Source of the DNA: Candidatus Brocadiia bacterium
GTDB taxonomy: Bacteria > Planctomycetota > PUPC01
Assembly: GCA_030605345.1 (NCBI GenBank)
Contig: JAUWIN010000001.1
Coordinates: forward strand, 5,253-69,252
Direction of reading: 5' to 3'
Length of the DNA: 64,000 bases
The translations under genes and the position numbers were made by a program. Shown piece after piece: positions 2,717 to 59,572 of this stretch. The notes under the pieces were generated by a model. The model was not told where the DNA came from, did no database searches, and saw nothing but the letters and a program-made list of their open reading frames with translations. Position 1 is the first letter of the stretch; every line of letters begins with the position of its first letter.

Positions 2717-3832
2717 TTGACCAAGAAACAGCGATTTCTGGCGGCGGTTCGAGGAGAAGTGCCCGACGTAGTGCCGGTGTCACCGCTTATCCACTGGCGG
2801 TTCGCCAACAAGGTGCTCGGCCGGTGGGATTGGAAGGCCGTATTCGAAGTGCATCAGATGATCGGATCGGTGCACCACCGCGGTCCAATCGGCGTGAGCG
2901 TGCATTCCTCCCTGCCCGACGGGTGTGGATCGGAGCAGCGTGAAATCAAACGCTCGCCCGATGGGCGCGTCGAGAGCGAATGGATCATCCGCACGCCCAA
3001 GCGGACCCTGCGCGGCAAGATTGAGAGGGGCCTGATCCCCCACGAACCCCTGGTGGGGAAGGCGGTGGAGTATCCCGTGAAGTCGGCGGAGTACTGGCGA
3101 GCCTACCTCGAGCTTCGGCAAGCCTGGCTGGAAAACATCACCGGCCCGGCGGTCGAACACTTCGACGAAGTGGTGAAAACGATGGGCGAGGAGGGCGTCC
3201 CGAGCGTAGCTCTCGGGCCAGCCCACAGCGCGCTGGGTGGCGTCCGGGGTATGGCTGAGTTCATCATGGATTTGCATGACTATCCGGACCTGATGGACGA
3301 ACTCTTCGAGGTCGAGCGGCAGATTACGGACAAGTGCATCGATGCGTTTCTGGCCGCGCCGACCGAAGTCGCGTGGCTCGACATCTGCTGGGCGACCGGA
3401 TCAAATCTGGGGCCGGAGCGGTTCAAACGATGGGCGCAGCCCGACGTGGAACGCGCCATGGACAGGGTGCGCGGGGTTCCGAACAAATACCTTGGCCTCT
3501 ACACCCTCGGCAGGATCCGCCACCTGTTGCCCATGTTTGCCGACGCAGGGGTGGATTTCGTCGAGACCTTCGAGCCGAACGAGGGCGACATTACCCTGGC
3601 GGAGGCCAAGAAGCTCTACGGGAAAAAGATGTGCTTGATGGGCAATTTCGACTGCACGATCCTCTCGTTCGGGACGGTAGAGGAGGCGCGGCAGGAAACG
3701 CGGCGCTGCCTGCGCGAGGGAATGGCCGACGGCGGATATGTGCTCGTGACCGGTGACGAAGTGCCCGCCGACACGAAAATGGACAGCCTGAAAGCAAGGG
3801 TTGAGACGGTCGAAGAGCACGGTCGGTACTAG
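2717..3832 (+). CDS. uroporphyrinogen decarboxylase-like (URO-D/MtaA-fold) family protein, paralog 2
   Basis: TTG start preceded by AAGGAGG (2704-2710). Motif ...KKMCLMGNFDCTIL...GYVLVTGDEVPADT; tandem with paralog 1 after a 38-nt gap. Confidence 0.7.
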   Translation: MTKKQRFLAAVRGEVPDVVPVSPLIHWRFANKVLGRWDWKAVFEVHQMIGSVHHRGPIGVSVHSSLPDGCGSEQREIKRSPDGRVESEWIIRTPKRTLRGKIERGLIPHEPLVGKAVEYPVKSAEYWRAYLELRQAWLENITGPAVEHFDEVVKTMGEEGVPSVALGPAHSALGGVRGMAEFIMDLHDYPDLMDELFEVERQITDKCIDAFLAAPTEVAWLDICWATGSNLGPERFKRWAQPDVERAMDRVRGVPNKYLGLYTLGRIRHLLPMFADAGVDFVETFEPNEGDITLAEAKKLYGKKMCLMGNFDCTILSFGTVEEARQETRRCLREGMADGGYVLVTGDEVPADTKMDSLKARVETVEEHGRY

Positions 3833-15668: not shown

Positions 15669-16337
15669 TCACAGTATAACCCTTCGCAGAAAGTGGAACA
15701 AGCCCATTCTTTTCCCGACGGTAAGTCGCGGTAGGCGCAGCGGATCGATGTCCGCTCCGACCGCGCCCCGAACGGTCGTGCAGGCGGTCTGATAGCCGGC
15801 CTTACGCACGGCTGCCACAGTCCGTTCATCGAAAGTCCCATACGGATAGCAGAAGTGGCGTATCTCCCGCCCTAACATGTCCTCTAGGATTTTTTTGGAA
15901 CCATCTACTTCGTTCCACAAGTCGTCCGACGAACATTCCGTGAGCCGTGCATGAGTCCGGCTGTGGCTGCCAATGTCAATGCCGGACTCGGTCATCTCCC
16001 TTAACTGCGAGCGGGTCAGGAGGGGGTATGGACGGTGACGTCCCGGCCAGTCGGATGATTGTCTGTCAGTTGTTGCGAAGACGACCGCTGGAATATGCCG
16101 GGCACTCAGCACCGGAAGGGCGTGGTCGTAAATGTCGCTGAAACCGTCGTCGAACGTTATCACGACGTTGCGCCGAGGCATGCGTCCTTCCGCTATAAAA
16201 TGCGGCACGGCATCAAGGTTGCAGAACCTATATCGTAAGAAACGGAGGGTACTAATCTGCTGGCGAAATCGCGCCACGGGAACTGTCAGTCGCTCGTAGG
16301 GTTGGCCACGGAGTTCAGCCACGCGATGGTAGGTCAA
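15669..16337 (-). CDS. polysaccharide deacetylase (NodB homology, CE4 family)
   Basis: VVITFDDGFSDIYDHALPVL and IGSHSRTHARL are canonical NodB motifs 1 and 3. Confidence 0.7.
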   Translation of the reverse strand: MTYHRVAELRGQPYERLTVPVARFRQQISTLRFLRYRFCNLDAVPHFIAEGRMPRRNVVITFDDGFSDIYDHALPVLSARHIPAVVFATTDRQSSDWPGRHRPYPLLTRSQLREMTESGIDIGSHSRTHARLTECSSDDLWNEVDGSKKILEDMLGREIRHFCYPYGTFDERTVAAVRKAGYQTACTTVRGAVGADIDPLRLPRLTVGKRMGLFHFLRRVIL

Positions 16338-16424
16338 TATGCTGAGGCCGGCGATCGCACACTCCCGCTTATCTGGTCGTTTATTGATTGTCCTTGTTGA
16401 TTGTGTCTAATGCCTCGTCCGCGG

Positions 16425-17147
16425 TCACATCCTGAACTCGTCGCCCAGGTAGCGGTCTCGAACTGCTTCGTCCGCCAGGACCTCCTCCGGTGTGCCGTGC
16501 ATCAAGATGACCCCCTCGTCGATGATGTAGGCGCAGTCGGTAATGGAGAGGGTATCACGGACGTTGTGGTCGGTCAGCAGGATGCCGATGCCGCGGTCAC
16601 GCATGGTGCCGATCATTTGCTTGATGTCCGAGACCTTTTTGGGGTCGACGCCCGAGAAGGGTTCGTCGAGCATGATGACGGCCGGACGGGTGACGAGCGC
16701 CCTTGCGATTTCGAGCCTGCGGCGTTCTCCGCCCGAGAGGTTGAGTGCGAGCGAGCCGGCGAGTTTGTCCAGCCCGAGGTCCTTGAGAATGGCCATCCCG
16801 CGCTGGGTGCGTTGGTGCCTCGGCACGTCCAGTGTCTCGATGATTGCAATGATGTTGTCGAGCACGGTCATTCGCTGGAAGACCGACGGCTCCTGCGAGA
16901 GGTATCCCATCCCCCGCCGCGCCCGGAGGTACATCGGCAGATGGGTGACATCTTCACCATTGAGGAAGACCGAGCCGGCCTGCGGAGAGATCATCCCGAT
17001 GGTCATCCTGAACGAGGTGGTCTTCCCAGCGCCGTTGGGGCCCAGCAGTCCGACCACTTGTCCAGGGTCCACAGCGAAACTGGCCTGGTTCACCACGGTC
17101 TTGTGGCCGTAAGACTTCACCAGCTTTTTTGCTTCGAGCAGGGCCAT
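16425..17147 (-). CDS. lptB: LPS export ABC transporter ATP-binding protein LptB
   Basis: LLGPNGAGKTTSF...LNGEDVTHLPMYLRARRGMGYLSQEPSVF...LSGGERRRLEIARAL closely matches the LptB family. Start MALLEAKKL chosen. Confidence 0.85.
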   Translation of the reverse strand: MALLEAKKLVKSYGHKTVVNQASFAVDPGQVVGLLGPNGAGKTTSFRMTIGMISPQAGSVFLNGEDVTHLPMYLRARRGMGYLSQEPSVFQRMTVLDNIIAIIETLDVPRHQRTQRGMAILKDLGLDKLAGSLALNLSGGERRRLEIARALVTRPAVIMLDEPFSGVDPKKVSDIKQMIGTMRDRGIGILLTDHNVRDTLSITDCAYIIDEGVILMHGTPEEVLADEAVRDRYLGDEFRM

Positions 17148-17157
17148 TGCGCTGTCC

Positions 17158-18435
17158 TCAATTAATAAACCTCCAGCGGGGAATAGGCCAGAAGACAAAG
17201 AACGCCTCGCCGATGAGGCTGGGTTGCTTGACCACGCCCCAGCTGCGGCTGTCGAAACTGTTGGGGCTGTTATCGCCGAGAACAAAATACTCGTCCGGGC
17301 CGAGTTTGAACGGCTGGTGGACCGCGAATCTCTGGTAGCGCCTGTTGGAGGTATAGAAGATGTCGCGCCAGAGCCGTACGTCGCGAACGGTCACGTCGCA
17401 GCCAGTGACGGCGAACTCGGCCCTGCTGATTTCGGTGCCGTGGAGTTGGGCTTCGGGGCCCGCCGGCACGCTGTCATCGAATGAGATGATTTCCTCGCCG
17501 TCCACCTCCAGTACAACACGCTGGTCAATGTTTGAGAATTCGACCAGATGTTCGCCATTTGCATTGAACGGTTCGGCGGCGTGGGCGGTTTCCTCGCCGT
17601 TGCACAGCAACCTGGGCGTCTCGCCCCGCTTGCCCAGTGGGAGGTAGGCGGCGTATTTGGTGTCGTCCTCGCGCAGACGGGCGATAATATACCCTGAGCC
17701 ACCGGTGTGCTTGAACCGCAAGGCCAGTTTGAGGTCTCCGACGATGTTGAACGGCCCCAAGCGTTGGCGGTTGGTAGCGCTTTTTCGGTCCGACTCCACT
17801 CGGTCTTCGATCTCGTCAAGATAACGGACACCGCATTCACGCGGGGGTGACGACCCGGAAAGTGTGATGGCGTCGCCACGCATGCGGACGGCGCCGTATT
17901 TGCCCCAGCGCTCGAAAAAAACCTCACCGCGCCTCTTCAGAATTTCGTCGTTGGCCACCGGCATGAGCAGTACGTCTTGGACATTTTCGGGCTTGTGTGA
18001 TATCCGGCTGTCGATGAACACGTCGCCGTTCCTGATCTCAATTTCCTGGCCCGGCAGCCCCACCAGCCGCTTCACATAATTGACGTAGTCCGCGCTGCCG
18101 GGGTATGTGACGGTTCCGTTTGGGTTCTGTTCAACGGCCTCGGCGACGAGGCGGGCGGCCGCGTCTTCCCGCGCACGCGCCCTGTAGAAATCGATACGGT
18201 GCTGGTCGATCTTGAAGACGATGATGTCCCACTGCTGGGGTGGATGTAGATCGAACTGGAACTTACTGACCAGGATGCGGTCGCCGTGGCTCTCACTCCC
18301 GATGAGCGTCGGCTCCATCGACGAGGTCGGGATGCGAAACGCCTCTACTACGTAGTGCCGCATGATCATCGCCAGGACAAAGGCGACCGCAAGGCTCTCG
18401 GCGTATTCCCTGACGGTCAGGCGCGTGAGTTTCAT
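17158..18435 (-). CDS. lepB: signal peptidase I (LepB) with an enlarged middle domain
   Basis: N-terminal TM segment, SMEPTL (box B, Ser nucleophile), VKRLVGLPGQ (box D, Lys) and GDNSPNSFDSRSWG (box E). Confidence 0.8.
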   Translation of the reverse strand: MKLTRLTVREYAESLAVAFVLAMIMRHYVVEAFRIPTSSMEPTLIGSESHGDRILVSKFQFDLHPPQQWDIIVFKIDQHRIDFYRARAREDAAARLVAEAVEQNPNGTVTYPGSADYVNYVKRLVGLPGQEIEIRNGDVFIDSRISHKPENVQDVLLMPVANDEILKRRGEVFFERWGKYGAVRMRGDAITLSGSSPPRECGVRYLDEIEDRVESDRKSATNRQRLGPFNIVGDLKLALRFKHTGGSGYIIARLREDDTKYAAYLPLGKRGETPRLLCNGEETAHAAEPFNANGEHLVEFSNIDQRVVLEVDGEEIISFDDSVPAGPEAQLHGTEISRAEFAVTGCDVTVRDVRLWRDIFYTSNRRYQRFAVHQPFKLGPDEYFVLGDNSPNSFDSRSWGVVKQPSLIGEAFFVFWPIPRWRFIN

Positions 18436-33882: not shown

Positions 33883-34360
33883 GCGACTGGCCGCATGGAA
33901 TCGGATAAGTAACAGCACGATTGTGACGACAGCATACTAATTTTCGCAGCGTGTTGCGCGTTCGGCCGGGGGGTGGGGCCGACACAACCGCCACTATCGT
34001 TCCGGACAGTCTCAATCGGGTGATGGTTCAGCAGACCGCGACGCGCGCCCCGTTGTTTGGCCAATCGCTTTGCTTTGTCGGCCTGGCCGTTTGCAGCTTA
34101 TTGCGGCTTTTCGTCGCTACTCCCTTTCGCCGCCGGGTTTTTGTCCCCGAGGGTAATGCTCACTTGAACCGGCTCGCCGGGGACAGCGGCGCATGAGAAT
34201 CCGCAGTGCCCGGACGGCTGAAAAATCACCCAATCTCTGACGTGGTCGGGCGCTGGGGCGCCGGTGAACCTGGCGACATAAGCACTGGCCGCGCAGTGCG
34301 TTATGTGCAGGCCGAAAAAGCAGCCTGGCAACCCCAAATGTAATTTTTTGTAAAACGAGC

Positions 34361-34424
34361 AAAATGCTACAGCGGTTGTAGCAATGCTACAGCATTTGTA
34401 GCACGTATAAGGGTAGAGGCACGG
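34361..34424 (+). promoter_or_regulatory. conserved palindrome-rich ~65-nt element, copy 1, in the leader of a PEP-CTERM gene
   Basis: AAAATGCTACAGCGGTTGTAGCAATGCTACAGCATTTGTAGCACGTATAAGGGTAGAGG is ~85% identical to a reverse-complement copy at 42108-42177. Contains the 7-1-7 palindrome TGTAGCAaTGCTACA. Confidence 0.5.
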
Positions 34425-34759
34425 TGTAAGTGTGCCCTATGAGAAAGATAACGCGCGGAGCGAGAGAGCGGGATCACAGACGCGCCTTTGCCCGACACGG
34501 GTAGCGGTGCGCCAGCGACCCTAACCGGGGCGGTGCGTAAGCCGCACCCGAGGAGGTGACGCGGAGCCATGCGCGCTCCAACCAACCGTGGCAGCCAGCG
34601 GCGAGCGAAAGGAGGTGATGCGAGGCAAGCACAACCGATGCAACGCCAGCCGTGAATTTGCGGGCCGCGGGCGAATTGGCGGCCATCACCCACTGGAGAC
34701 GGCGCTCATTGTGTTTGGCGCATAAGACTAATCTGCATTTTTGTCGGAGGGACGAGAAA

Positions 34760-35491
34760 ATGAAAAGAGTGAGTTTGCTGGCGGCGCTCGTGTTACTGCT
34801 CACGATTGCCCCGGCGCAGGCGGTGTCGATCCAAATGACCGACGCCACCCCGCACTACGTCAATACCAAGGAGAACTGCTGCACGCCGGCGGAATGCGAC
34901 ATCTGCAAGATCACCGGGTTCTACAACTCGACCCCGGCGGCCGCGGGAGGAAACACAGACTTCACCAACGCGTTCAATGCCTGGGAAGACGACAACGAGG
35001 GCTGGACAATCGTTAACGCCGGGGCCTTGTCGGGAACGTTTCAGATTACCACGTTCGACGCCAAGTTCGACGGGTGCAGCGGCGGGGTGGAGTTCCAGGT
35101 CACCTATGTACCCGGCGAGGGCGACCCAGCGGTGGGCGATACGAACTGGGCACAGGCGATCGACACCAACGACCCCTTGGGCGGCAAAACCAGCCCCTAC
35201 CTGGACATCGCGTCCGGCAAGGACGAGGACCCGCCGCTCTATCCCCACTCATACCCGGACGGGTATTTCTATGACTGGCCCAAGCGAGGATGCCCGGATG
35301 ACTGCGAAGAGACCGTGAGTTGGGAAGGTCACCTGTACTTGACCGCGATCGACCGCGCCGCCGAGAAGTTGTCCCTCTACGAAGGGATCGTATGGGGCTT
35401 CGGGCTGGACTGCGTCGTGCCCGAGCCGGCGATGCTGCCCCTGCTGGGGCTGGGCGTCGCGGCCGTGCTCAACCGCCGCCGGAGGAGGTAA
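34760..35491 (+). CDS. PEP-CTERM sorting domain-containing exported protein
   Basis: Signal peptide MKRVSLLAALVLLLTIAPAQA. C-terminus VPEPAMLPLLGLGVAAVLNRRRRR is the PEP motif plus TM helix plus Arg cluster. Confidence 0.75.
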   Translation: MKRVSLLAALVLLLTIAPAQAVSIQMTDATPHYVNTKENCCTPAECDICKITGFYNSTPAAAGGNTDFTNAFNAWEDDNEGWTIVNAGALSGTFQITTFDAKFDGCSGGVEFQVTYVPGEGDPAVGDTNWAQAIDTNDPLGGKTSPYLDIASGKDEDPPLYPHSYPDGYFYDWPKRGCPDDCEETVSWEGHLYLTAIDRAAEKLSLYEGIVWGFGLDCVVPEPAMLPLLGLGVAAVLNRRRRR

Positions 35492-40620: not shown

Positions 40621-41862
40621 TTACCTGACCAATGAGCGGCGCCGGGTCCGCCGGAGGAAGCGCAGCATAATCAAGCCGAATGTCAGGGTTACACAGGCGG
40701 GCGGTTCTGGCACTGCCTCGAACGCCCCCATGTCGGCCTGTCCGCCGTAAAAGCGGGCCTTGCCGTCGAGGTCGCTGAGAATCACGTATTCGGCGGTGCC
40801 GGGAGCTATTCCGTCAACCACCACGTCCATATCCGCTTGGAACCCGGTGCTGGGGTTGACGTTGACGTAGCGAAAATCGCCAGCATCCACGGTGGCGCCG
40901 CTGTTTATACAGGGACTGCCGACCGCCAGCCTGAAGTCTTGCAGGAGCGGGTCGGTGGTGATGCTGCCCCCGTTGTCGAAGTCGTATTCACCATCGAAGA
41001 CAAAACTACCGCCGGTCGCCTTGTAAATATCGCTGGAGGAATAAAATCGTTTGTTGGGCAGTTCATAGCCGGGTCGCTTGTCTGCGGTGAGTTCAACCGG
41101 CGTGCTCTCCGCGGTGACGATGCTGTTGAAGAGCTGAAGATACCCATCGGTATTCCACGGCTCCTCGTCGTTGGAGATACCAATGGCATTGTCTGCGATG
41201 GTGGAATGGACGATGTAGGTGCTGAATCCATCGGTCGTATCCACGTAGCGCAGACCGGTCCCGAATCCTTCGATGAGTGAATTCATCACATATACCCCAT
41301 GGCAGTGGTCGTCGATGTGGATGCCGGTGCGGGGGTCAGTGTCCTTGCCGTCACCGGAGAGGTGACAGTTCTTGAGAACTGACCCGGCGGCGAAAGTGCT
41401 GAAGTACACGGCGCCGTCAACCGCGAACCCGTCAATGGTTATCGTGGTCAGGTGAACGTGAAAGACCTTGTCGCCCGAGCCAGTGATATGGCTTTTGCTT
41501 GAGAGTTCCTGGTGGACGTTCACCGGGGCGGATTCGCCAGTCTCCCACTTCATCCCTCCCTGGACGGTGTTGACCGTGACTGTGTCGGAGGTGAGGTTAA
41601 TCTGCCCCCCGCTGACCTCGTCCACGTCCTCCTCATAATCACTGTGCACTCGGATGTCCCAGTCGCCGGAACCGTTCGTTTGGATCCACTCATAGACCGC
41701 GTCGATTCCGCTCAGTCCCTCGTCCTCCATCCACTTCCATGAGGGGTCGTTATTGACGGCCGGCTGCGGCCCGCCGACGTAGTAGTAATTCGTCGCCAAC
41801 GCCGGCGCCGAAGCGGCGAAAAGAAAGACAAGAACAGTGCCGGTCACGAATTGCAGACGCAT
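40621..41862 (-). CDS. PEP-CTERM sorting domain-containing protein with a right-handed beta-helix (pectate-lyase-like) region
   Basis: Signal peptide MRLQFVTGTVLVFLFAASAPALA; a beta-helix-like repeat region (NCHLSGDG...HIDDHCHGVYVMNSLIEG...IADNAIGIS); C-terminus EAVPEPPACVTLTFGLIMLRFLRRTRRR. Confidence 0.75.
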   Translation of the reverse strand: MRLQFVTGTVLVFLFAASAPALATNYYYVGGPQPAVNNDPSWKWMEDEGLSGIDAVYEWIQTNGSGDWDIRVHSDYEEDVDEVSGGQINLTSDTVTVNTVQGGMKWETGESAPVNVHQELSSKSHITGSGDKVFHVHLTTITIDGFAVDGAVYFSTFAAGSVLKNCHLSGDGKDTDPRTGIHIDDHCHGVYVMNSLIEGFGTGLRYVDTTDGFSTYIVHSTIADNAIGISNDEEPWNTDGYLQLFNSIVTAESTPVELTADKRPGYELPNKRFYSSSDIYKATGGSFVFDGEYDFDNGGSITTDPLLQDFRLAVGSPCINSGATVDAGDFRYVNVNPSTGFQADMDVVVDGIAPGTAEYVILSDLDGKARFYGGQADMGAFEAVPEPPACVTLTFGLIMLRFLRRTRRRSLVR

Positions 41863-42107
41863 GGGTTGACCTCCTCATCCACCGGTGTCAGGTTATTCTG
41901 ACCGCCTATCCAAAAAGGTGCGTACGTCCCGTGGCGCCGGCCCATCCGACGCCCCAACATCGCTTGTTGTTGGCTGGCATCACATCCTTCTGACTGTGAG
42001 CCAGCTCCTCCGGCAGCGGTTGAGCATAGCCAGCCCGCTGGCCTCTGCAAAGCTGTCTTGCGGCCGGCCCGGTCTACCCCTGGGGCAGACCTTCCCGCCG
42101 CACGAAA

Positions 42108-42177
42108 CACCATCACCCTCTACTATAATACACGCTACAAATGCTGTAGCATTGCTACACGGCGTGTAGCAATTTTT
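42108..42177 (-). promoter_or_regulatory. conserved palindrome-rich ~65-nt element, copy 2, in the leader of the second PEP-CTERM gene
   Basis: Reverse complement AAAAATTGCTACACGCCGTGTAGCAATGCTACAGCATTTGTAGCGTGTATTATAGTAGAGGGTGATGG aligns with copy 1 (34361-34424) in the same orientation relative to the gene. Confidence 0.5.
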
Positions 42178-42612
42178 CTCCGGGTCGCGCGGCCCTGGCG
42201 TTTGTCTGGTCATAACCTAACCCAGCGCCAGGTCTTATGCCGTTTGCGCGCTGGTCCGTTGCATCCGCGTCCGCCCCCATTTTTTTTGTTTTTTCCTGCC
42301 CTGTTGTAGCGGACAGGTTCTCGAAGACATCTCGGACAACTTGTTCCGGTTCCGAAAACCCTCTTCAGTGCAGGGGAATGCCATGCCGACAGCGCCGAAA
42401 ATTTGGGAAAATCTGTGACTCGTAGTCAGACCGGCACTTAGTGCTGCTCTGTCAATTCTGCTTTCTGGGGTATGTGTTGCATGGAGCGTGGCTTCACGAG
42501 GACAATATGCGGGCCCGCGTTGAGCAAAACCGGCGAAGTTGACAAAGTAGCACTAACCGCGGGCCGGCCCGTCGGTCAATAGCCGAAATACAAAAATACT
42601 GAGCGGGCTCAG

Positions 42613-42641
42613 TTGACCACGCCCGTTCGCTACCGTATAAT
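42613..42641 (+). promoter_or_regulatory. sigma-70 promoter (TTGACC-N17-TATAAT) for tRNA-Phe
   Basis: TTGACC at 42613-42618, 17-nt spacer, TATAAT at 42636-42641, 11 nt upstream of the mature tRNA 5' end. Confidence 0.5.
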
Positions 42642-42652
42642 CCTCGGTCGAT

Positions 42653-42727
42653 GGGTAGGTAGCTCAGGGGTAGAGCACGGGACTGAAAATCCCGGTGTCG
42701 GCGGTTCAATTCCGCCCCTACCCACCA
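42653..42727 (+). tRNA. tRNA-Phe (anticodon GAA)
   Basis: GGGTAGGTAGCTCAGGGGTAGAGCACGGGACTGAAAATCCCGGTGTCGGCGGTTCAATTCCGCCCCTACCCACCA has a 7-bp acceptor stem, anticodon loop CTGAAAA and T-loop TTCAATT; CCA encoded. Confidence 0.85.
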
Positions 42728-44132: not shown

Positions 44133-44543
44133 TCAGAACGTGTCCAACATGCGGATATCCGCCTGTGACTCGGCGAGTTTGGCAAGGCGGCGGTCTGCGG
44201 TTACCAGCGTTCCATTAACCTCGAGCGCGAGAGCTACATAGGAAGCATCGTACACGCTGGCGCCCGTTGTACCCGCTACGTGAATCGCTCGAAAAATCAG
44301 TCCGGCGTCCAAAGCCGAGAAGGAGATGCCAGTATCAAGCAGCTGACGTATCGAATTCTGGACCTGCGAGGGGGTCAGTTCGATTTTCCGCAGAAGGATG
44401 TTAGCGACCTCGTACAACAACATATCGGGGGCGGCCATATCGAGGCTTCCGAGCAAAGCCTGCTCGCAAAGCGCAAGAGCCTTGTCGGAATCATTTTCTC
44501 TTACGAACCACTTTAACGCCACAGATGCATCGATGACATACAC
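44133..44543 (-). CDS. vapC: PIN-domain ribonuclease toxin (VapC family)
   Basis: MYVIDASVALKWF... conserved acidic residues (D5, E-region, D near C-terminus); 136 aa. Overlaps the upstream small ORF by 1 nt. Confidence 0.75.
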   Translation of the reverse strand: MYVIDASVALKWFVRENDSDKALALCEQALLGSLDMAAPDMLLYEVANILLRKIELTPSQVQNSIRQLLDTGISFSALDAGLIFRAIHVAGTTGASVYDASYVALALEVNGTLVTADRRLAKLAESQADIRMLDTF

Positions 44544-44779
44544 TAGCGCTCTCTTTCCTCTCGAACTAGTGTCACCACGTCTTTGCCCTTAGCCTTACCC
44601 TTTGTTAACTTCTGAATCTTCTCGAAAGCCTTTAGTACTTCCTGTGCTGGTTTGGGGCTGCTCAATCTTCGCAACGTCCGATACGTGGCGCGGGGCTCCT
44701 TGGTCTGCCCGGAATCCTTGTCCTTCTTGTCTTCATCCATCGCCATTCTCCCGAAGGCGGTCAATTCTAACAATACCAC
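44543..44779 (-). CDS. putative antitoxin partner of VapC (small Lys-rich protein)
   Basis: 78-aa ORF (or 67 aa from the internal MAMDEDKK start) immediately upstream of and overlapping vapC. No clear AbrB/RHH motif, so assignment is by context. Confidence 0.4.
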   Translation of the reverse strand: MVLLELTAFGRMAMDEDKKDKDSGQTKEPRATYRTLRRLSSPKPAQEVLKAFEKIQKLTKGKAKGKDVVTLVREERER

Positions 44780-52434: not shown

Positions 52435-52496
52435 TGGTGCCGAGGGCGGGATTTGAACCCGCATGCCCCATAAGGAGCACTAGGCCCTCAACCTAG
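52435..52496 (-). tRNA. tRNA-Leu (anticodon GAG) 3' fragment, 5'-truncated (pseudo-tRNA / att-site remnant)
   Basis: Reverse complement ...CTAGGTTGAGGGCCTAGTGCTCCTTATGGGGCATGCGGGTTCAAATCCCGCCCTCGGCACCA gives an anticodon arm (loop TTGAGGG), a long variable arm, a T-arm and the acceptor 3' strand + CCA. The complementary 5' acceptor strand (GCCGAGG) is absent. A hairpin plus U-rich tract follows the 3' end. Confidence 0.55.
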
Positions 52497-52661
52497 CATG
52501 TCTGCCAGTTCCATTAAGAAACTCCCGTATCGGGGGAATGCTTTCTCTAACCTATCTATTGCTCCTGTAAGAGAATCCAATATGAACTCATCAGACCTCA
52601 TTTGCTTCCTGCGAATGTTTTCTACATACTCTTTTTGCTCTGACATTTGGCAGACCTCATA
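52488..52661 (-). pseudogene. truncated low-GC ORF (57 codons) reading into the tRNA-Leu fragment
   Basis: MSEQKEYVENIRRKQMRSDEFILDSLTGAIDRLEKAFPRYGSFLMELADMLG*; its last ~10 codons are encoded by tRNA-derived sequence. It looks like a gene N-terminus cut by an integration or deletion junction. Confidence 0.3.
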
Positions 52662-57562: not shown

Positions 57563-58378
57563 TTAGTTCCGCCGTCGGATGAGCGCGGCCCGCCTTGAGC
57601 GAAGTCCAAAGGCCAGAGCGCCCAACCCCAGCAGTGAGAGCGTGGCTGGCTCCGGGATGACCAGTTCAAAGTTGTCACAGTAGAGTTTGCTGCCATCGTC
57701 AAGGGCAAAGTCGCAACCCCAATCCCAGCCGCCGATCCTTAAGGTAAAGGTGCTACTGCCGTCCATGTCCCAATCGCCGACCGAGATGCTGCTGCCCAAT
57801 GCTTGAAATCCGGCGCCCTCGTTGTAATAGGAATGGAACGACGTTCCGTCCCACACCAGCTTCAGCGCTCCATCGCTGGCGGTCGCCGGGGCGTAATGCT
57901 CCTCCATCTCCTCTCCTTCGTCAGTGGTTTTCTCTATCCACCAGCCAAGATAGTACTCGTCTTCCCACCAGCCCCGGTCGAGGCCGAACCAGAGCCCGTC
58001 ACGGTAATCAGCGGTGTTCAGGACGACGACCTCCATTCCGTAGTCGTGATCGCTTTCGGGGCCACCGCCATAGTCGCCGACGTGTACGTCCAGCGTCACG
58101 GTCCAGCCGGTTCCGTACGGCGCGGGGGTTTTGAGCTTGTAGTAGGCCGCATTCTCCTCATCGGGCTCCAGCTCCCCCGGCGAAGTGTATTCCAGATGCT
58201 CATGGATTTCCGCTAGATCACCGTCCTCATCAGTACCATATTCCCACATCGCTGTGTTGCAGATGTTATCGTTGAAGTCATCGAACAAAGTTTGTCCCAC
58301 GGTAGGGCTCGCACACAATCCTGAGGCGACCAGAAGCATGACGATAAGGCACGGGGTGTTCTTCAAGGCTACGTTCAT
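57563..58378 (-). CDS. PEP-CTERM sorting domain-containing exported protein (acidic, Trp/Asp-rich)
   Basis: Signal peptide MNVALKNTPCLIVMLLVASGLCASP. C-terminus VIPEPATLSLLGLGALAFGLRSRRAALIRRR is the PEP-CTERM motif. Confidence 0.7.
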   Translation of the reverse strand: MNVALKNTPCLIVMLLVASGLCASPTVGQTLFDDFNDNICNTAMWEYGTDEDGDLAEIHEHLEYTSPGELEPDEENAAYYKLKTPAPYGTGWTVTLDVHVGDYGGGPESDHDYGMEVVVLNTADYRDGLWFGLDRGWWEDEYYLGWWIEKTTDEGEEMEEHYAPATASDGALKLVWDGTSFHSYYNEGAGFQALGSSISVGDWDMDGSSTFTLRIGGWDWGCDFALDDGSKLYCDNFELVIPEPATLSLLGLGALAFGLRSRRAALIRRRN

Positions 58379-58686
58379 TCTCCACTCTCCTTTCCGTTAG
58401 AGGGTTCAGGCTTCTCCAAGATACAGAACAGCGGGTGCAATTATTCCTGCCAGTTTCATCAGGTCGCAGCCATCACTCCCTTCAGTGATTCCTATTGGTC
58501 AGCCGTTATTCGTGCTCACGTTGCCTTACTGCCGACCTTTTCGGCTGATTTCACCATTCCATTGCAGCAAACTGCGTGCCAGGCGAAACCAAAATCGTAA
58601 GTATTTTGAGCGCGGGGAGTAAGCCCTTGATACATAAGGGCTTACACCACTTTGCCGGAGCCTCATACCCTGGCAGGACCGGCGCG

Positions 58687-58819
58687 GCGTTCCCGCCATG
58701 TTGCGAAAATCCAACGTAGTTTTGCCGGGATTTGGCGCAGAAACGCGGTAAGTCTCGCAGCAGCAAGGGATTATTCACGTGTTGCGAAAAGGCAACACGG
58801 GTCTGGTCAGTGTTGCGTT
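58687..58819. promoter_or_regulatory. array of three GTGTTGC-N6-GCAACAC type palindromes in the leader of the third PEP-CTERM gene
   Basis: catGTTGCgaaaatcCAACg (58687-58706), cacGTGTTGCgaaaagGCAACACgg (58766-58790), caGTGTTGCgttttgaCAACgg (58798-58819); 310-440 bp upstream of the start at 58378. Confidence 0.35.
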
Positions 58820-58973: not shown

Positions 58974-59234
58974 TCAACGCCGTCTTTTCGTGCATCGCGT
59001 CAGGACATCGTCTATGAGGCGTGAGATGGCGATTCTGAGCTTGCCCTCCGTCTCGTAGGTGCCATTCTTGATTTCTTTTCGTATCCGTTCGAGTCGCATG
59101 CTGCGCTCTCCTGCGCCACGGCCAGTTCCACCGGCCGACCGCGATTCTCCGCGTCTACGAGCGACGGGGCTGCTCGGCTTATCCCCCTCACTTGCGTTCC
59201 GCTTGCCGCGGCTCAAACCCACGTCAGCCTCCAA
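58974..59234 (-). CDS. FlgM-like anti-sigma-28 factor (tentative)
   Basis: C-terminal RLERIRKEIKNGTYETEGKLRIAISRLIDDV resembles the FlgM C-terminal helix pair (..IK.AI..G.Y.VD..KLA..L..); disordered Arg/Gly-rich N-terminus. Confidence 0.4.
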   Translation of the reverse strand: MEADVGLSRGKRNASEGDKPSSPVARRRGESRSAGGTGRGAGERSMRLERIRKEIKNGTYETEGKLRIAISRLIDDVLTRCTKRRR

Positions 59235-59572
59235 GAGTGCTCCGGCTCCAATACGTCCACAAGTCTCCCTTATTATATCGACCGATTGGCGGAGATACTT
59301 GAGCAGAATCGGCGAACAGGGGGGAAACGGGCGCCCATGGGCCTAACGCTTGTTGTCGCCTGGAGTTACGCCCCTGTGAACTCCAGTTCACCAATCGAAT
59401 CGACCCTGACGATCGGATTTTTTGCCCCGCGCCACTCCCCATCGGGCGGCTCGCCTTCGGCGGCGCTGCGCACAAAGCGGGTGAGAAGCTCAGGGATGCT
59501 GTCGCGTGAGCCACTGTCCAGCAGAACAACCTCGAGCGGCCGCCGCGCCTCCGCGGCCCGGTGCCTTCGTCA

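What the first reader, a model, noticed from the sequence alone, without database searches (positions are those of the whole stretch)
42108..42177. Second copy of the PEP-CTERM leader element; partial third occurrence at 42297-42313
Reverse complement AAAAATTGCTACACGCCGTGTAGCAATGCTACAGCATTTGTAGCGTGTATTATAGTAGAGGGTGATGG aligns base-for-base with copy 1. A shorter related palindrome (CCTGTTGTAGCGGACAGG) sits 130 nt further from the gene. The 790-bp ORF-free stretch between this gene and tRNA-Phe is atypical for this otherwise tightly packed genome.
Basis: seen in the sequence. Interest (0 to 1): 0.6.

Follow-up and report, generated by a model that had tools for sequence, protein, structure and literature searches.

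The report
Shared operator-promoter before two PEP-CTERM genes
Two unrelated surface-protein (PEP-CTERM-type) genes of an uncultured planctomycete are each preceded by the same 59-base block, four alternating GCTACA/TGTAGC half-sites followed by a TATA-like box, which is most likely a shared promoter with a binding site for an unknown regulator; it is real and not previously described, but modest in scope.

Summary
The second copy is real. Window 42117-42175 (- strand) matches 34361-34419 (+ strand) without gaps at 48/59 bases, including a 26-base exact run.

The block is an A-tract, then GCTACA-N5-TGTAGC-N3-GCTACA-N5-TGTAGC (two 17-bp dyads, 20 bp apart), then TATAAG/TATTAT and GTAGAGG. All 24 half-site bases are identical between copies; all 5 bases of the first spacer differ.

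Both copies point toward a PEP-CTERM-type gene, about 340 and 255 nt upstream. The two proteins are not homologous. The leaders share a second collinear 32-nt block.

My best reading is a promoter (about -57 to +2) with a tandem operator for a dimeric DNA-binding protein. Nothing has been mapped, so this is inference.

It is not the proteobacterial sigma-54/PrsR motif. A third PEP-CTERM gene in the window does have a perfect sigma-54 promoter. No Rfam family matches.

Orthologues and roughly 70%-identity relatives lack the element. The same double dyad does recur in 34 loci from other phyla, at HxlR/CMD divergent promoters and in mobile elements.

The "partial third occurrence" is one chance hexamer in an unrelated hairpin.

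The parts
42117..42175 (-). Copy 2 of the conserved 59-nt block: A-tract, four half-sites, -10-like box, GTAGAGG.
   Evidence: Ungapped 48/59 match to 34361-34419, E 7e-13.
42134..42170 (.). Copy 2 double dyad GCTACA-N5-TGTAGC-N3-GCTACA-N5-TGTAGC. Hexamers at 42134-39, 42145-50, 42154-59 and 42165-70. The 37-bp pattern is its own reverse complement.
   Evidence: All 24 half-site bases are identical to copy 1, whereas 11 of the other 35 block positions differ (P=0.0015).
42125..42130 (-). -10-like hexamer TATTAT. The predicted transcription start is near 42118, which would give a 5' UTR of about 256 nt.
   Evidence: Read from the sequence. Inferred, not mapped.
42171..42177 (-). A-tract (AAAAATT) 5' of the first half-site, at about -59 to -53. 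On the opposite strand it is the T-run that follows a hairpin.
41958..41989 (-). Second conserved leader block AAGGATGTGATGCCAGCCAACAACAAGCGATG, at about +130 to +161 and 96 nt before the ATG.
   Evidence: 26/32 identical to 34609-34640. Local alignment score 20 against 10.9 +/- 1.5 in 300 shuffles, none reaching it.
40621..41862 (-). Downstream gene 2: 413-aa secreted protein ending ...VPEPPACVTLTFGLIMLRFLRRTRRRSLVR.
   Evidence: Choice-of-anchor Q domain passes its cut-off. The PEP-CTERM HMMs do not reach threshold, so the tail is PEP-CTERM-like by inspection only.
34361..34419 (+). Copy 1 of the block. Hexamers at 34366-71, 34377-82, 34386-91 and 34397-402. -10-like TATAAG at 34406-34411. 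Predicted start near 34418, giving a 5' UTR of about 342 nt.
34609..34640 (+). Second conserved leader block of copy 1: AAGGAGGTGATGCGAGGCAAGCACAACCGATG.
34760..35491 (+). Downstream gene 1: 243-aa PEP-CTERM protein.
   Evidence: PF07589 and TIGR02595 both pass their cut-offs. No homologue other than itself.
42300..42317 (.). It is not part of the element.
42613..42727 (+). Divergent neighbour: tRNA-Phe (42653-42727) with a near-consensus TTGACC-17-TATAAT promoter (42613-42641). It bounds the 790-bp stretch and shows that this organism uses canonical sigma-70 hexamers.

Best explanation
The 59-nt block is a promoter module with a built-in tandem operator, shared by two otherwise unrelated PEP-CTERM-type surface-protein genes so that one regulator controls both.

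Geometry, relative to a start inferred 7 nt after the TATA-like box: A-tract at -57/-54; half-sites at -52/-47, -41/-36, -32/-27 and -21/-16; -10 box at -12/-7. The two 17-bp dyads (GCTACA-N5-TGTAGC) are centred about 20 bp apart, so they sit on roughly the same face of the helix. That arrangement suits two dimers of a helix-turn-helix or winged-helix protein.

The sites cover the -35 region, which is itself a poor match to TTGACA. The bound protein therefore either occludes RNA polymerase (repression with de-repression) or substitutes for -35 recognition (activation). I favour repression slightly.

Transcription would yield long 5' UTRs of about 342 and 256 nt. These carry a second shared 32-nt block that may act after initiation.

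Shown: the repeat, its anatomy, its orientation and its pattern of conservation. Inferred: promoter activity, the start site, protein binding and the direction of regulation.
For: 1. Conservation starts at the A-tract and stops at GTAGAGG, a promoter-sized span ending at the predicted start. The flanks and the rest of the leaders do not align.
2. All 24 half-site bases are identical, while 11 of the other 35 positions differ, including 5/5 in spacer 1 (P=0.0015). The half-sites were defined from symmetry within a single copy, independently of the between-copy comparison.
3. Both copies have the same orientation relative to the downstream gene. The two proteins are not homologous, so gene duplication does not explain the shared block.
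4. A second block is shared in the same order, as expected for footprints in co-regulated leaders.
5. Orthologues of gene 2 (47-50% identity) have plain TTGACy-17-TAGAAT promoters about 100 nt upstream. The window has no intact counterpart, and no other sigma-70-like site exists in the 790 bp apart from the tRNA promoter. Gene 2 therefore needs a promoter from somewhere.
6. The same 4-half-site architecture has a chance expectation of about 0.004 in the genome collection (my own arithmetic). It occurs in 34 loci elsewhere.
7. In 12 of these loci it fills the 75-90-nt gap between divergent HxlR-family regulator and CMD-family genes, an arrangement typical of operators at the level of DNA.
8. 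In six mobile-element loci it has the same A-tract/AAATTGCTACA...TGTAGCG polarity toward the downstream gene as in the window.
9. Haft et al. 2006 (PMC1569441) report that PEP-CTERM genes are typically single-gene operons with more than 200 nt of upstream DNA carrying shared cis-regulatory motifs.
Against: 1. There are only two copies and no transcript data.
2. The -35 is poor (at best ATGCTA, 3/6). Copy 1's -10 (TATAAG) lacks the conserved final T, so the consensus scan does not call a promoter at either copy.
3. No candidate regulator is encoded in the window.
4. Orthologues and relatives lack the element, so there is no comparative support within the lineage.
5. Under a length-weighted null, two copies both falling in PEP-CTERM upstream regions in the sense orientation has P of only about 0.02.
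6. A perfectly conserved stem with a variable loop also fits an RNA or DNA hairpin.
Confidence: 0.55

Rival explanations
1. A genome-specific repeated palindromic element (REP/BIME-like, or a relic of a mobile-element cassette) that happens to lie upstream of these two genes and has no dedicated regulatory role.
For: It consists of tandem palindromic units in alternating orientation and is restricted to this lineage. The same double dyad occurs in integrative elements and viral contigs. Both PEP-CTERM genes are absent from the syntenic region of relatives. The length-weighted placement test is only P~0.02-0.07.
Against: There are only two copies in 64 kb. Both are 5' of genes, in the same orientation and at similar distances. 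The block has a non-palindromic conserved extension (GTATwA..GTAGAGG). A second collinear block is shared further downstream. No flanking terminal repeats, target duplications or transposase are present.
Confidence: 0.15
2. An RNA element: transcription starts further upstream and the dyads form two short hairpins (or one alternative central hairpin) in the 5' leader, acting on stability, attenuation or protein binding.
For: The sense strand folds into one or two hairpins, with z-scores of -2.0 and -2.9. Three mutually exclusive pairings are possible (1:2, 3:4 or 2:3). The stems are conserved while one loop varies.
Against: There is no conserved promoter upstream, because homology begins at the A-tract. 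No Rfam match appears even at E<=10. The stems show no compensatory changes, and the sense strand has no U-tract after the hairpins. In the 12 HxlR/CMD loci the same pattern lies between divergent start codons, which fits DNA recognition.
Confidence: 0.1
3. An intrinsic terminator on the strand antisense to the PEP-CTERM genes, stopping antisense or divergent transcripts.
For: Both copies score as terminator-like on the antisense strand: a 7-10-bp stem followed by TTTTTCT or TTTTGCT, with fold z-scores of -4.2 and -3.4. The same hairpin-then-T-run polarity is seen in the mobile-element loci.
Against: No gene on that strand ends nearby at either copy. About 1.2-1.3 such hits per region are expected by chance. 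This reading does not explain the second dyad, the TATA-like box or GTAGAGG. The antisense ORFs that end in the block are not credible genes: they have no family hit, low GC3, 1 synonymous against 5 non-synonymous codon changes, and the second block lies in different frames.
Confidence: 0.07
4. An upstream activating sequence for a sigma-54 enhancer-binding protein, as in the proteobacterial PEP-CTERM system. NtrC-type sites are also 6-5-6 dyads occurring in pairs (from general knowledge).
For: The dyads are 17 bp and tandem. PEP-CTERM genes are classically sigma-54 dependent (PMC1569441). The third PEP-CTERM gene in this window has a perfect TGGCACgcagtTTGCT.
Against: Neither leader has a sigma-54-like -24/-12 site. 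The best candidate scores 7/12 in leader 1, and leader 2 has none.
Confidence: 0.03

Closest known systems
Proteobacterial PEP-CTERM upstream cis-regulatory site (motif 1 + sigma-54 motif 2; PrsR/PrsK/PrsT), Haft et al. 2006, PMC1569441
   Same: A short DNA block shared by the long (>200 nt) upstream regions of otherwise unrelated, single-gene PEP-CTERM loci, implying co-regulation. That paper explicitly expects further motifs outside the Proteobacteria.
   Different: The sequence and logic are different. Here there is no sigma-54 -24/-12 element and no 17-nt motif ending in TTTACA. Instead there are four alternating hexamers overlapping a sigma-70-like core. The host is a planctomycete, and no PrsR-like protein is visible in the window.
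Tandem palindromic operators of winged-helix regulators, specifically the double dyad between HxlR-family and CMD-family genes found here in 12 alphaproteobacterial and Bacteroidota loci
   Same: Identical half-sites, spacers and 20-bp register (GCTACA-N5-TGTAGC twice), and overlap with promoter regions.
   Different: Those sites are symmetric (TTGCTACA...TGTAGCAA) and sit next to their presumed regulator gene. The window's copies are polar (A-tract on one side, TATA-like box on the other), precede structural genes, and have no HxlR-like gene in the 64 kb. I found no published operator with this sequence.
The same polar double dyad in integrative or mobile elements (loci L001, L003, L007, L011, L016, L017)
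   Same: Shared polarity: A-rich tract, AAATTGCTACA-N5-TGTAGCAwTGCTACA-N5-TGTAGCG, then a gene 120-180 nt downstream.
   Different: The downstream genes there are primase, DnaB-like helicase or ECF-like sigma genes. The upstream gene ends in a conserved ~75-aa domain of unknown function. None of these proteins has a homologue in the window.
REP/BIME repeated extragenic palindromes
   Same: Short palindromic units in alternating tandem arrangement, specific to one genome lineage.
   Different: The copy number seen is low, the position is 5' of genes in a fixed orientation, and there is a non-palindromic promoter-like extension.

Membership tests
Proteobacterial PEP-CTERM cis-regulatory site (Haft 2006) | A sigma-54 -24(GG)/-12(GC) motif, on average about 71 nt before the start codon | tested here: not met
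   TGGCAC-N5-TTGCW with up to 2 mismatches has no hit in either leader. A scan requiring both GG and GC gives at best 7/12 in leader 1 and nothing in leader 2.
Proteobacterial PEP-CTERM cis-regulatory site (Haft 2006) | A 17-nt motif 1 ending in TTTACA, about 63 nt upstream of motif 2 | tested here: not met
   There is no TTTACA on the sense strand of any of the three PEP-CTERM upstream regions.
Proteobacterial PEP-CTERM cis-regulatory site (Haft 2006) | A single-gene operon with more than 200 nt of non-coding DNA upstream | tested here: met
   The upstream gaps are 877, 790 and 1194 nt. The neighbouring genes are on other strands or unrelated.
Proteobacterial PEP-CTERM cis-regulatory site (Haft 2006) | PrsR, PrsK and PrsT encoded in the genome | not testable with these tools
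   Only 64 kb of the genome is available, and no such protein was seen among the window proteins scanned.
Sigma-70-type promoter with overlapping operator | A -10 hexamer close to TATAAT | tested here: inconclusive
   TATTAT (5/6) in copy 2. TATAAG (5/6, but lacking the conserved T6) in copy 1. The consensus scan calls neither.
Sigma-70-type promoter with overlapping operator | A -35 hexamer close to TTGACA, 16-18 bp upstream | tested here: not met
   The best candidate is ATGCTA (3/6) at a 16-bp spacing, read. This fits a factor-dependent promoter but gives no positive support.
Sigma-70-type promoter with overlapping operator | Inverted-repeat half-sites in helical register overlapping the core promoter | tested here: met
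   Two 17-bp dyads lie 20 bp apart, spanning -52 to -16.
Sigma-70-type promoter with overlapping operator | A mapped transcription start and demonstrated protein binding | not testable with these tools
   This needs RNA 5'-end mapping and EMSA or footprinting.
HxlR-family regulator operator | A cognate HxlR-family gene adjacent to or near the site | tested here: not met
   A tblastn search of all genes neighbouring the 29 related loci against the window found no homologue. The rest of the genome is unavailable.
Intrinsic terminator | A GC-containing hairpin followed by a U-run at the 3' end of a transcription unit on the same strand | tested here: not met
   A hairpin plus T-run exists only on the antisense strand. 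No gene ends there on that strand.
Any Rfam RNA family | A covariance-model match | tested here: not met
   At gathering thresholds only the two tRNAs match. At E<=10 nothing overlaps either block.
REP/BIME | Many dispersed copies, mostly at 3' ends or between convergent genes, in either orientation | tested here: inconclusive
   There are two copies in 64 kb, both 5' of genes in the sense orientation. The length-weighted P is about 0.02.
PEP-CTERM protein (downstream gene of this copy) | A C-terminal PEP-CTERM domain passing PF07589 or TIGR02595 | tested here: not met
   Gene 2 (40621-41862) passes only the choice-of-anchor Q model (27.1 against a cut-off of 25). Its tail VPEP + hydrophobic stretch + RRTRRR is PEP-CTERM-like by inspection. 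Gene 1 passes both models.

The most novel reading that the evidence does not exclude
The polar double dyad (A-tract-TTGCTACA-N5-TGTAGCAwTGCTACA-N5-TGTAGCG) is the operator of an undescribed, cross-phylum regulator carried by integrative mobile elements. One candidate for that regulator is the conserved ~75-aa C-terminal domain encoded just upstream of the site in those elements. In this reading the planctomycete has wired two surface-protein genes to that operator, so that a mobile-element-type regulator controls the host cell surface.
Probability: 0.1. Interest if true: 0.6.

Novelty: new variant of a known kind. Interest (0 to 1): 0.35.

Why it matters
PEP-CTERM/exosortase substrates are abundant surface proteins of sediment and biofilm bacteria. 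Outside the Proteobacteria their regulation is essentially unknown, and Haft et al. 2006 flagged exactly this gap. Here one 64-kb stretch shows two promoter types for such genes: a canonical sigma-54 promoter and the double-dyad block. The defined 59-bp block also gives a concrete bait for pulling down the regulator and a pattern for defining its regulon in planctomycete genomes. The value is limited because there are only two copies, the organism is uncultured and no close relative carries the element.

Tried and rejected
1. Rfam at gathering and permissive thresholds found only tRNAs.

2. The sigma-54/enhancer reading fails because neither leader has a -24/-12 site.

3. Conservation in orthologues of gene 2 (P0002-4; L030-32) was checked. 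The element is absent and plain sigma-70 promoters are present instead.

4. Conservation in relatives was checked through GalK synteny (about 70% identity; L033-37). Both PEP-CTERM genes and the element are absent.

5. Gene 1 has no homologue at all.

6. Lookups for more of the source genome did not extend it. The two exact-protein lookups for gene 2 found nothing; an edge protein matched only a 3.8-kb contig from another assembly.

7. Antisense ORFs that end inside the block (...ST[LI]I[RH]ATNAVALL) are rejected as coding.

8. No homologue of any gene neighbouring the 29 related loci exists in the window.

9. BLAST of the element against annotated plasmids and phages returned only chance-level hits.

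10. Literature searches for the hexamers returned primer noise.

11. The conserved C-terminal domain from the mobile-element loci has no Pfam or PDB match.

12. The leader folds show no common structure around the second block. Leader 2 has z -4.4 and leader 1 has z -1.5.

13. An embedded TTGCTA-18-TACAnT promoter, which is plausible for the HxlR/CMD loci, does not fit the window copies (read).

Full report
**Observation**

A motif search placed copy 1 at about 34360-34420 on the + strand. Pairwise BLAST of the two upstream regions gives one ungapped match: 34361-34419(+) against 42175-42117(-), 48/59 identical, E 7e-13. The match includes a 26-nt exact run. In shuffled versions of the window the paired-hexamer pattern never occurs. 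The second copy is therefore real and not a chance match.

**Anatomy**

- Each copy reads AAAwTGCTACA-N5-TGTAGCAATGCTACAGCATTTGTAGC-nn-GTATwAkrGTAGAGG.
- The core is four hexamers in alternating orientation: GCTACA-N5-TGTAGC-N3-GCTACA-N5-TGTAGC. That is two 17-bp dyads whose centres are 20 bp apart.
- The 37-bp pattern is its own reverse complement.
- The flanks give it polarity: an A-tract on the gene-distal side, and a TATA-like hexamer (TATAAG or TATTAT) plus GTAGAGG on the gene-proximal side.
- None of the 11 differences between copies falls in the 24 half-site positions, while all five bases of the first spacer differ. The probability of this under random placement is 0.0015. The half-sites were defined from symmetry within one copy, so the test is independent of the comparison.

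**Context**

- Copy 1 lies 341 nt before the ATG of a 243-aa protein that passes both PEP-CTERM models.
- Copy 2 lies 255 nt before a 413-aa protein. This protein passes only a choice-of-anchor Q model, but it ends in VPEP, a hydrophobic stretch and RRTRRR.
- The two proteins are not homologous.
- Apart from the block, the leaders share one more collinear 32-nt segment, at 34609-34640 and 41989-41958. It is 26/32 identical and no shuffle out of 300 reached its score.
- The source organism is an uncultured member of the Planctomycetota, judged from the names attached to its GalK relatives.

**The 'third occurrence'**

CCTGTTGTAGCGGACAGG is at 42300-42317. It shares a single TGTAGC with the element. 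That hexamer occurs 16 times outside the two elements, against about 14 expected in the window. Neither dyad searches allowing two mismatches nor a relaxed BLAST of the block detect the site. I reject it as a partial copy.

**The ORF-free stretch**

The region 41863-42652 contains no ORF with family support. Its far end is occupied by a near-consensus promoter (TTGACC-17-TATAAT) for the divergent tRNA-Phe. Long gaps are not unique to this locus: the window has five of 790 nt or more. However, three of the five largest precede the three PEP-CTERM-type genes. This matches the rule described by Haft et al. 2006, PMC1569441.

**What it is not**

- It matches no Rfam family, even at E<=10.
- It is not the proteobacterial PEP-CTERM site. 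Neither leader has a sigma-54 -24/-12 element, and there is no TTTACA motif.
- By contrast, the third PEP-CTERM gene (57563-58378, - strand) has a perfect TGGCACgcagtTTGCT at 58566-58581, plus upstream dyads. This genome therefore uses at least two promoter types for such genes.
- It is not a coding remnant. The antisense ORFs that end inside the block have no family hit, low GC3 and mostly non-synonymous differences, and the second block falls in different frames in the two ORFs.

**Comparative evidence within the lineage**

- Orthologues of gene 2 (47-50% identity) lack the element. They carry ordinary TTGACy-17-TAGAAT promoters about 100 nt upstream.
- The window has no intact counterpart of that promoter.
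- Relatives at about 70% GalK identity lack both PEP-CTERM genes at the syntenic position, and lack the element.
- Gene 1 is an orphan.
- The element is therefore specific to this lineage, and I could not test its conservation.

**Comparative evidence outside the lineage**

The exact four-half-site pattern has a chance expectation of about 0.004 per 596 Gb (my own arithmetic). It occurs in 15 genome loci, 14 metagenome loci and 5 viral loci, none of them planctomycete.

- Twelve loci are the short divergent region between an HxlR-family regulator gene and a CMD-family gene, in Alphaproteobacteria and Bacteroidota. This is a classic operator position.
- Most of the remaining loci are integrative or mobile elements with primase, helicase, integrase or excisionase genes. 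One of them has about five tandem 20-bp units.
- Six mobile-element loci share the window's polarity exactly: an A-rich tract, AAATTGCTACA...TGTAGCG, then a gene 120-180 nt downstream.
- None of the neighbouring proteins has a homologue in the window.

These loci show that the double dyad is a recurrent, functional DNA architecture. They do not identify the protein that binds it here.

**Mechanism**

I take the TATA-like box as a -10 element. The predicted starts are then near 34418 and 42118. The A-tract falls at -57/-54 and the half-sites span -52 to -16.

The conserved block therefore coincides with a full promoter footprint and ends at the start site. I regard this as the strongest single argument for a promoter with a built-in operator.

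The -35 is poor (at best 3/6), so the promoter is probably factor-dependent. Two dimers on the same face could either occlude RNA polymerase or replace -35 contacts. I cannot decide between these and lean slightly toward repression.

The second block lies at about +130 and +192. It contains AAGGAgGTGATG, and an ATG at the same aligned position opens short upstream ORFs of 35 and 24 codons that stop 35-45 nt before the main start. In leader 2 the GGA sits in a hairpin loop. Its role is unknown.

**Rival explanations**

- A REP-like or mobile-element relic. The placement statistics are only P~0.02-0.07.
- Leader RNA hairpins. There is no conserved promoter upstream of them and no covariation in the stems.
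- An antisense terminator. Both copies are flagged, but no gene ends there on that strand.

**Verdict**

This is a real second copy of an undescribed cis element linked to PEP-CTERM-type genes, most likely a shared operator-promoter. Confidence is about 0.55. It is a new variant of a known kind of feature and of moderate-to-low interest, pending a whole-genome census and 5'-end mapping.

Noticed in passing
window 58566-58581 (-), with dyads near 58795-58815 and 58700-58720: The third PEP-CTERM gene (57563-58378, - strand) has a perfect sigma-54 promoter, TGGCACgcagtTTGCT, about 165-190 nt before its ATG. Further upstream are two related dyads, GTGTTGC-N6-GCAACAC and GTTG-N7-GCAAC, which are candidate enhancer sites. 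It has no GCTACA element.
   Followed up: partly
window 34609-34640 (+), 41958-41989 (-), and possibly 59347-59361 (-): A second conserved block is shared by the two leaders, with core AGsCrAsmACAAsCG. A third match lies far upstream of the third PEP-CTERM gene. The block contains a Shine-Dalgarno-like AAGGAG/AAGGAT followed by an ATG that opens short upstream ORFs of 35 and 24 codons.
   Followed up: partly
window 58974-59222 (-): A small ORF has a C-terminus (RIRKEIKNGTYETEGKLRIAISRLIDD) resembling the anti-sigma-28 factor FlgM. The Pfam match is E 0.056, below the cut-off. It lies in the 1.2-kb gap upstream of the sigma-54 PEP-CTERM gene.
   Followed up: partly
window 52446-52566 (-): ARAGORN calls a 95-nt tRNA-Ile(GAT) here, but the Rfam tRNA model scores only 25.6 bits (gathering score 29) over a shorter span. 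It may be a degraded or atypical tRNA.
   Followed up: partly
L002, L004, L006, L008, L009, L010, L012, L013, L014, L015, L022, L024: The same double dyad fills the divergent region between HxlR-family and CMD (AhpD-like) genes in Alphaproteobacteria and Bacteroidota. In the alphaproteobacterial loci checked, the CMD start codon is 14 nt from the edge of the site. This looks like a conserved regulator-operator pair, and I found no description of it.
   Followed up: partly
L001 4800-6875, L003 3636-4901, L007 1989-2282, L011 1-357, L017 1137-2417: The genes ending just upstream of the polar double dyad share a ~75-aa C-terminal domain (YL..G.PRK...EK.RK.vS.AI.R.I.KI...H..LA.HL...I.TG....Y.P) with no Pfam or PDB match. 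In L001 it is fused to a QatC-like (Qat anti-phage) module. Weak ECF-like sigma genes lie downstream in L003 and L017.
   Followed up: partly
L020 1248-1346: About five tandem 20-bp units of GCTACACGAGATGTAGCGTC, an iteron-like array built from the same dyad.
   Followed up: no
L030 ~3715-3745, L031 ~1175-1205, L032 ~648-678 compared with window 41863-41910: Orthologues of gene 2 keep a strong TTGACy-17-TAGAAT promoter. The window retains only a remnant, GGCGGTCAGAATAAC, with no usable -35. This suggests promoter replacement in this lineage.
   Followed up: partly
window 44133-44779 (-): A PIN-domain-like toxin ORF of 136 aa with an overlapping 78-aa upstream ORF, arranged like a VapBC toxin-antitoxin pair, sits between purQ and purL. 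This was judged from the sequence only.
   Followed up: no
window 15842-17157: This is the largest gap in the window without a convincing gene (1316 nt). Only a low-GC3 ORF (16401-17165) lies in it, and there is no Rfam hit.
   Followed up: no
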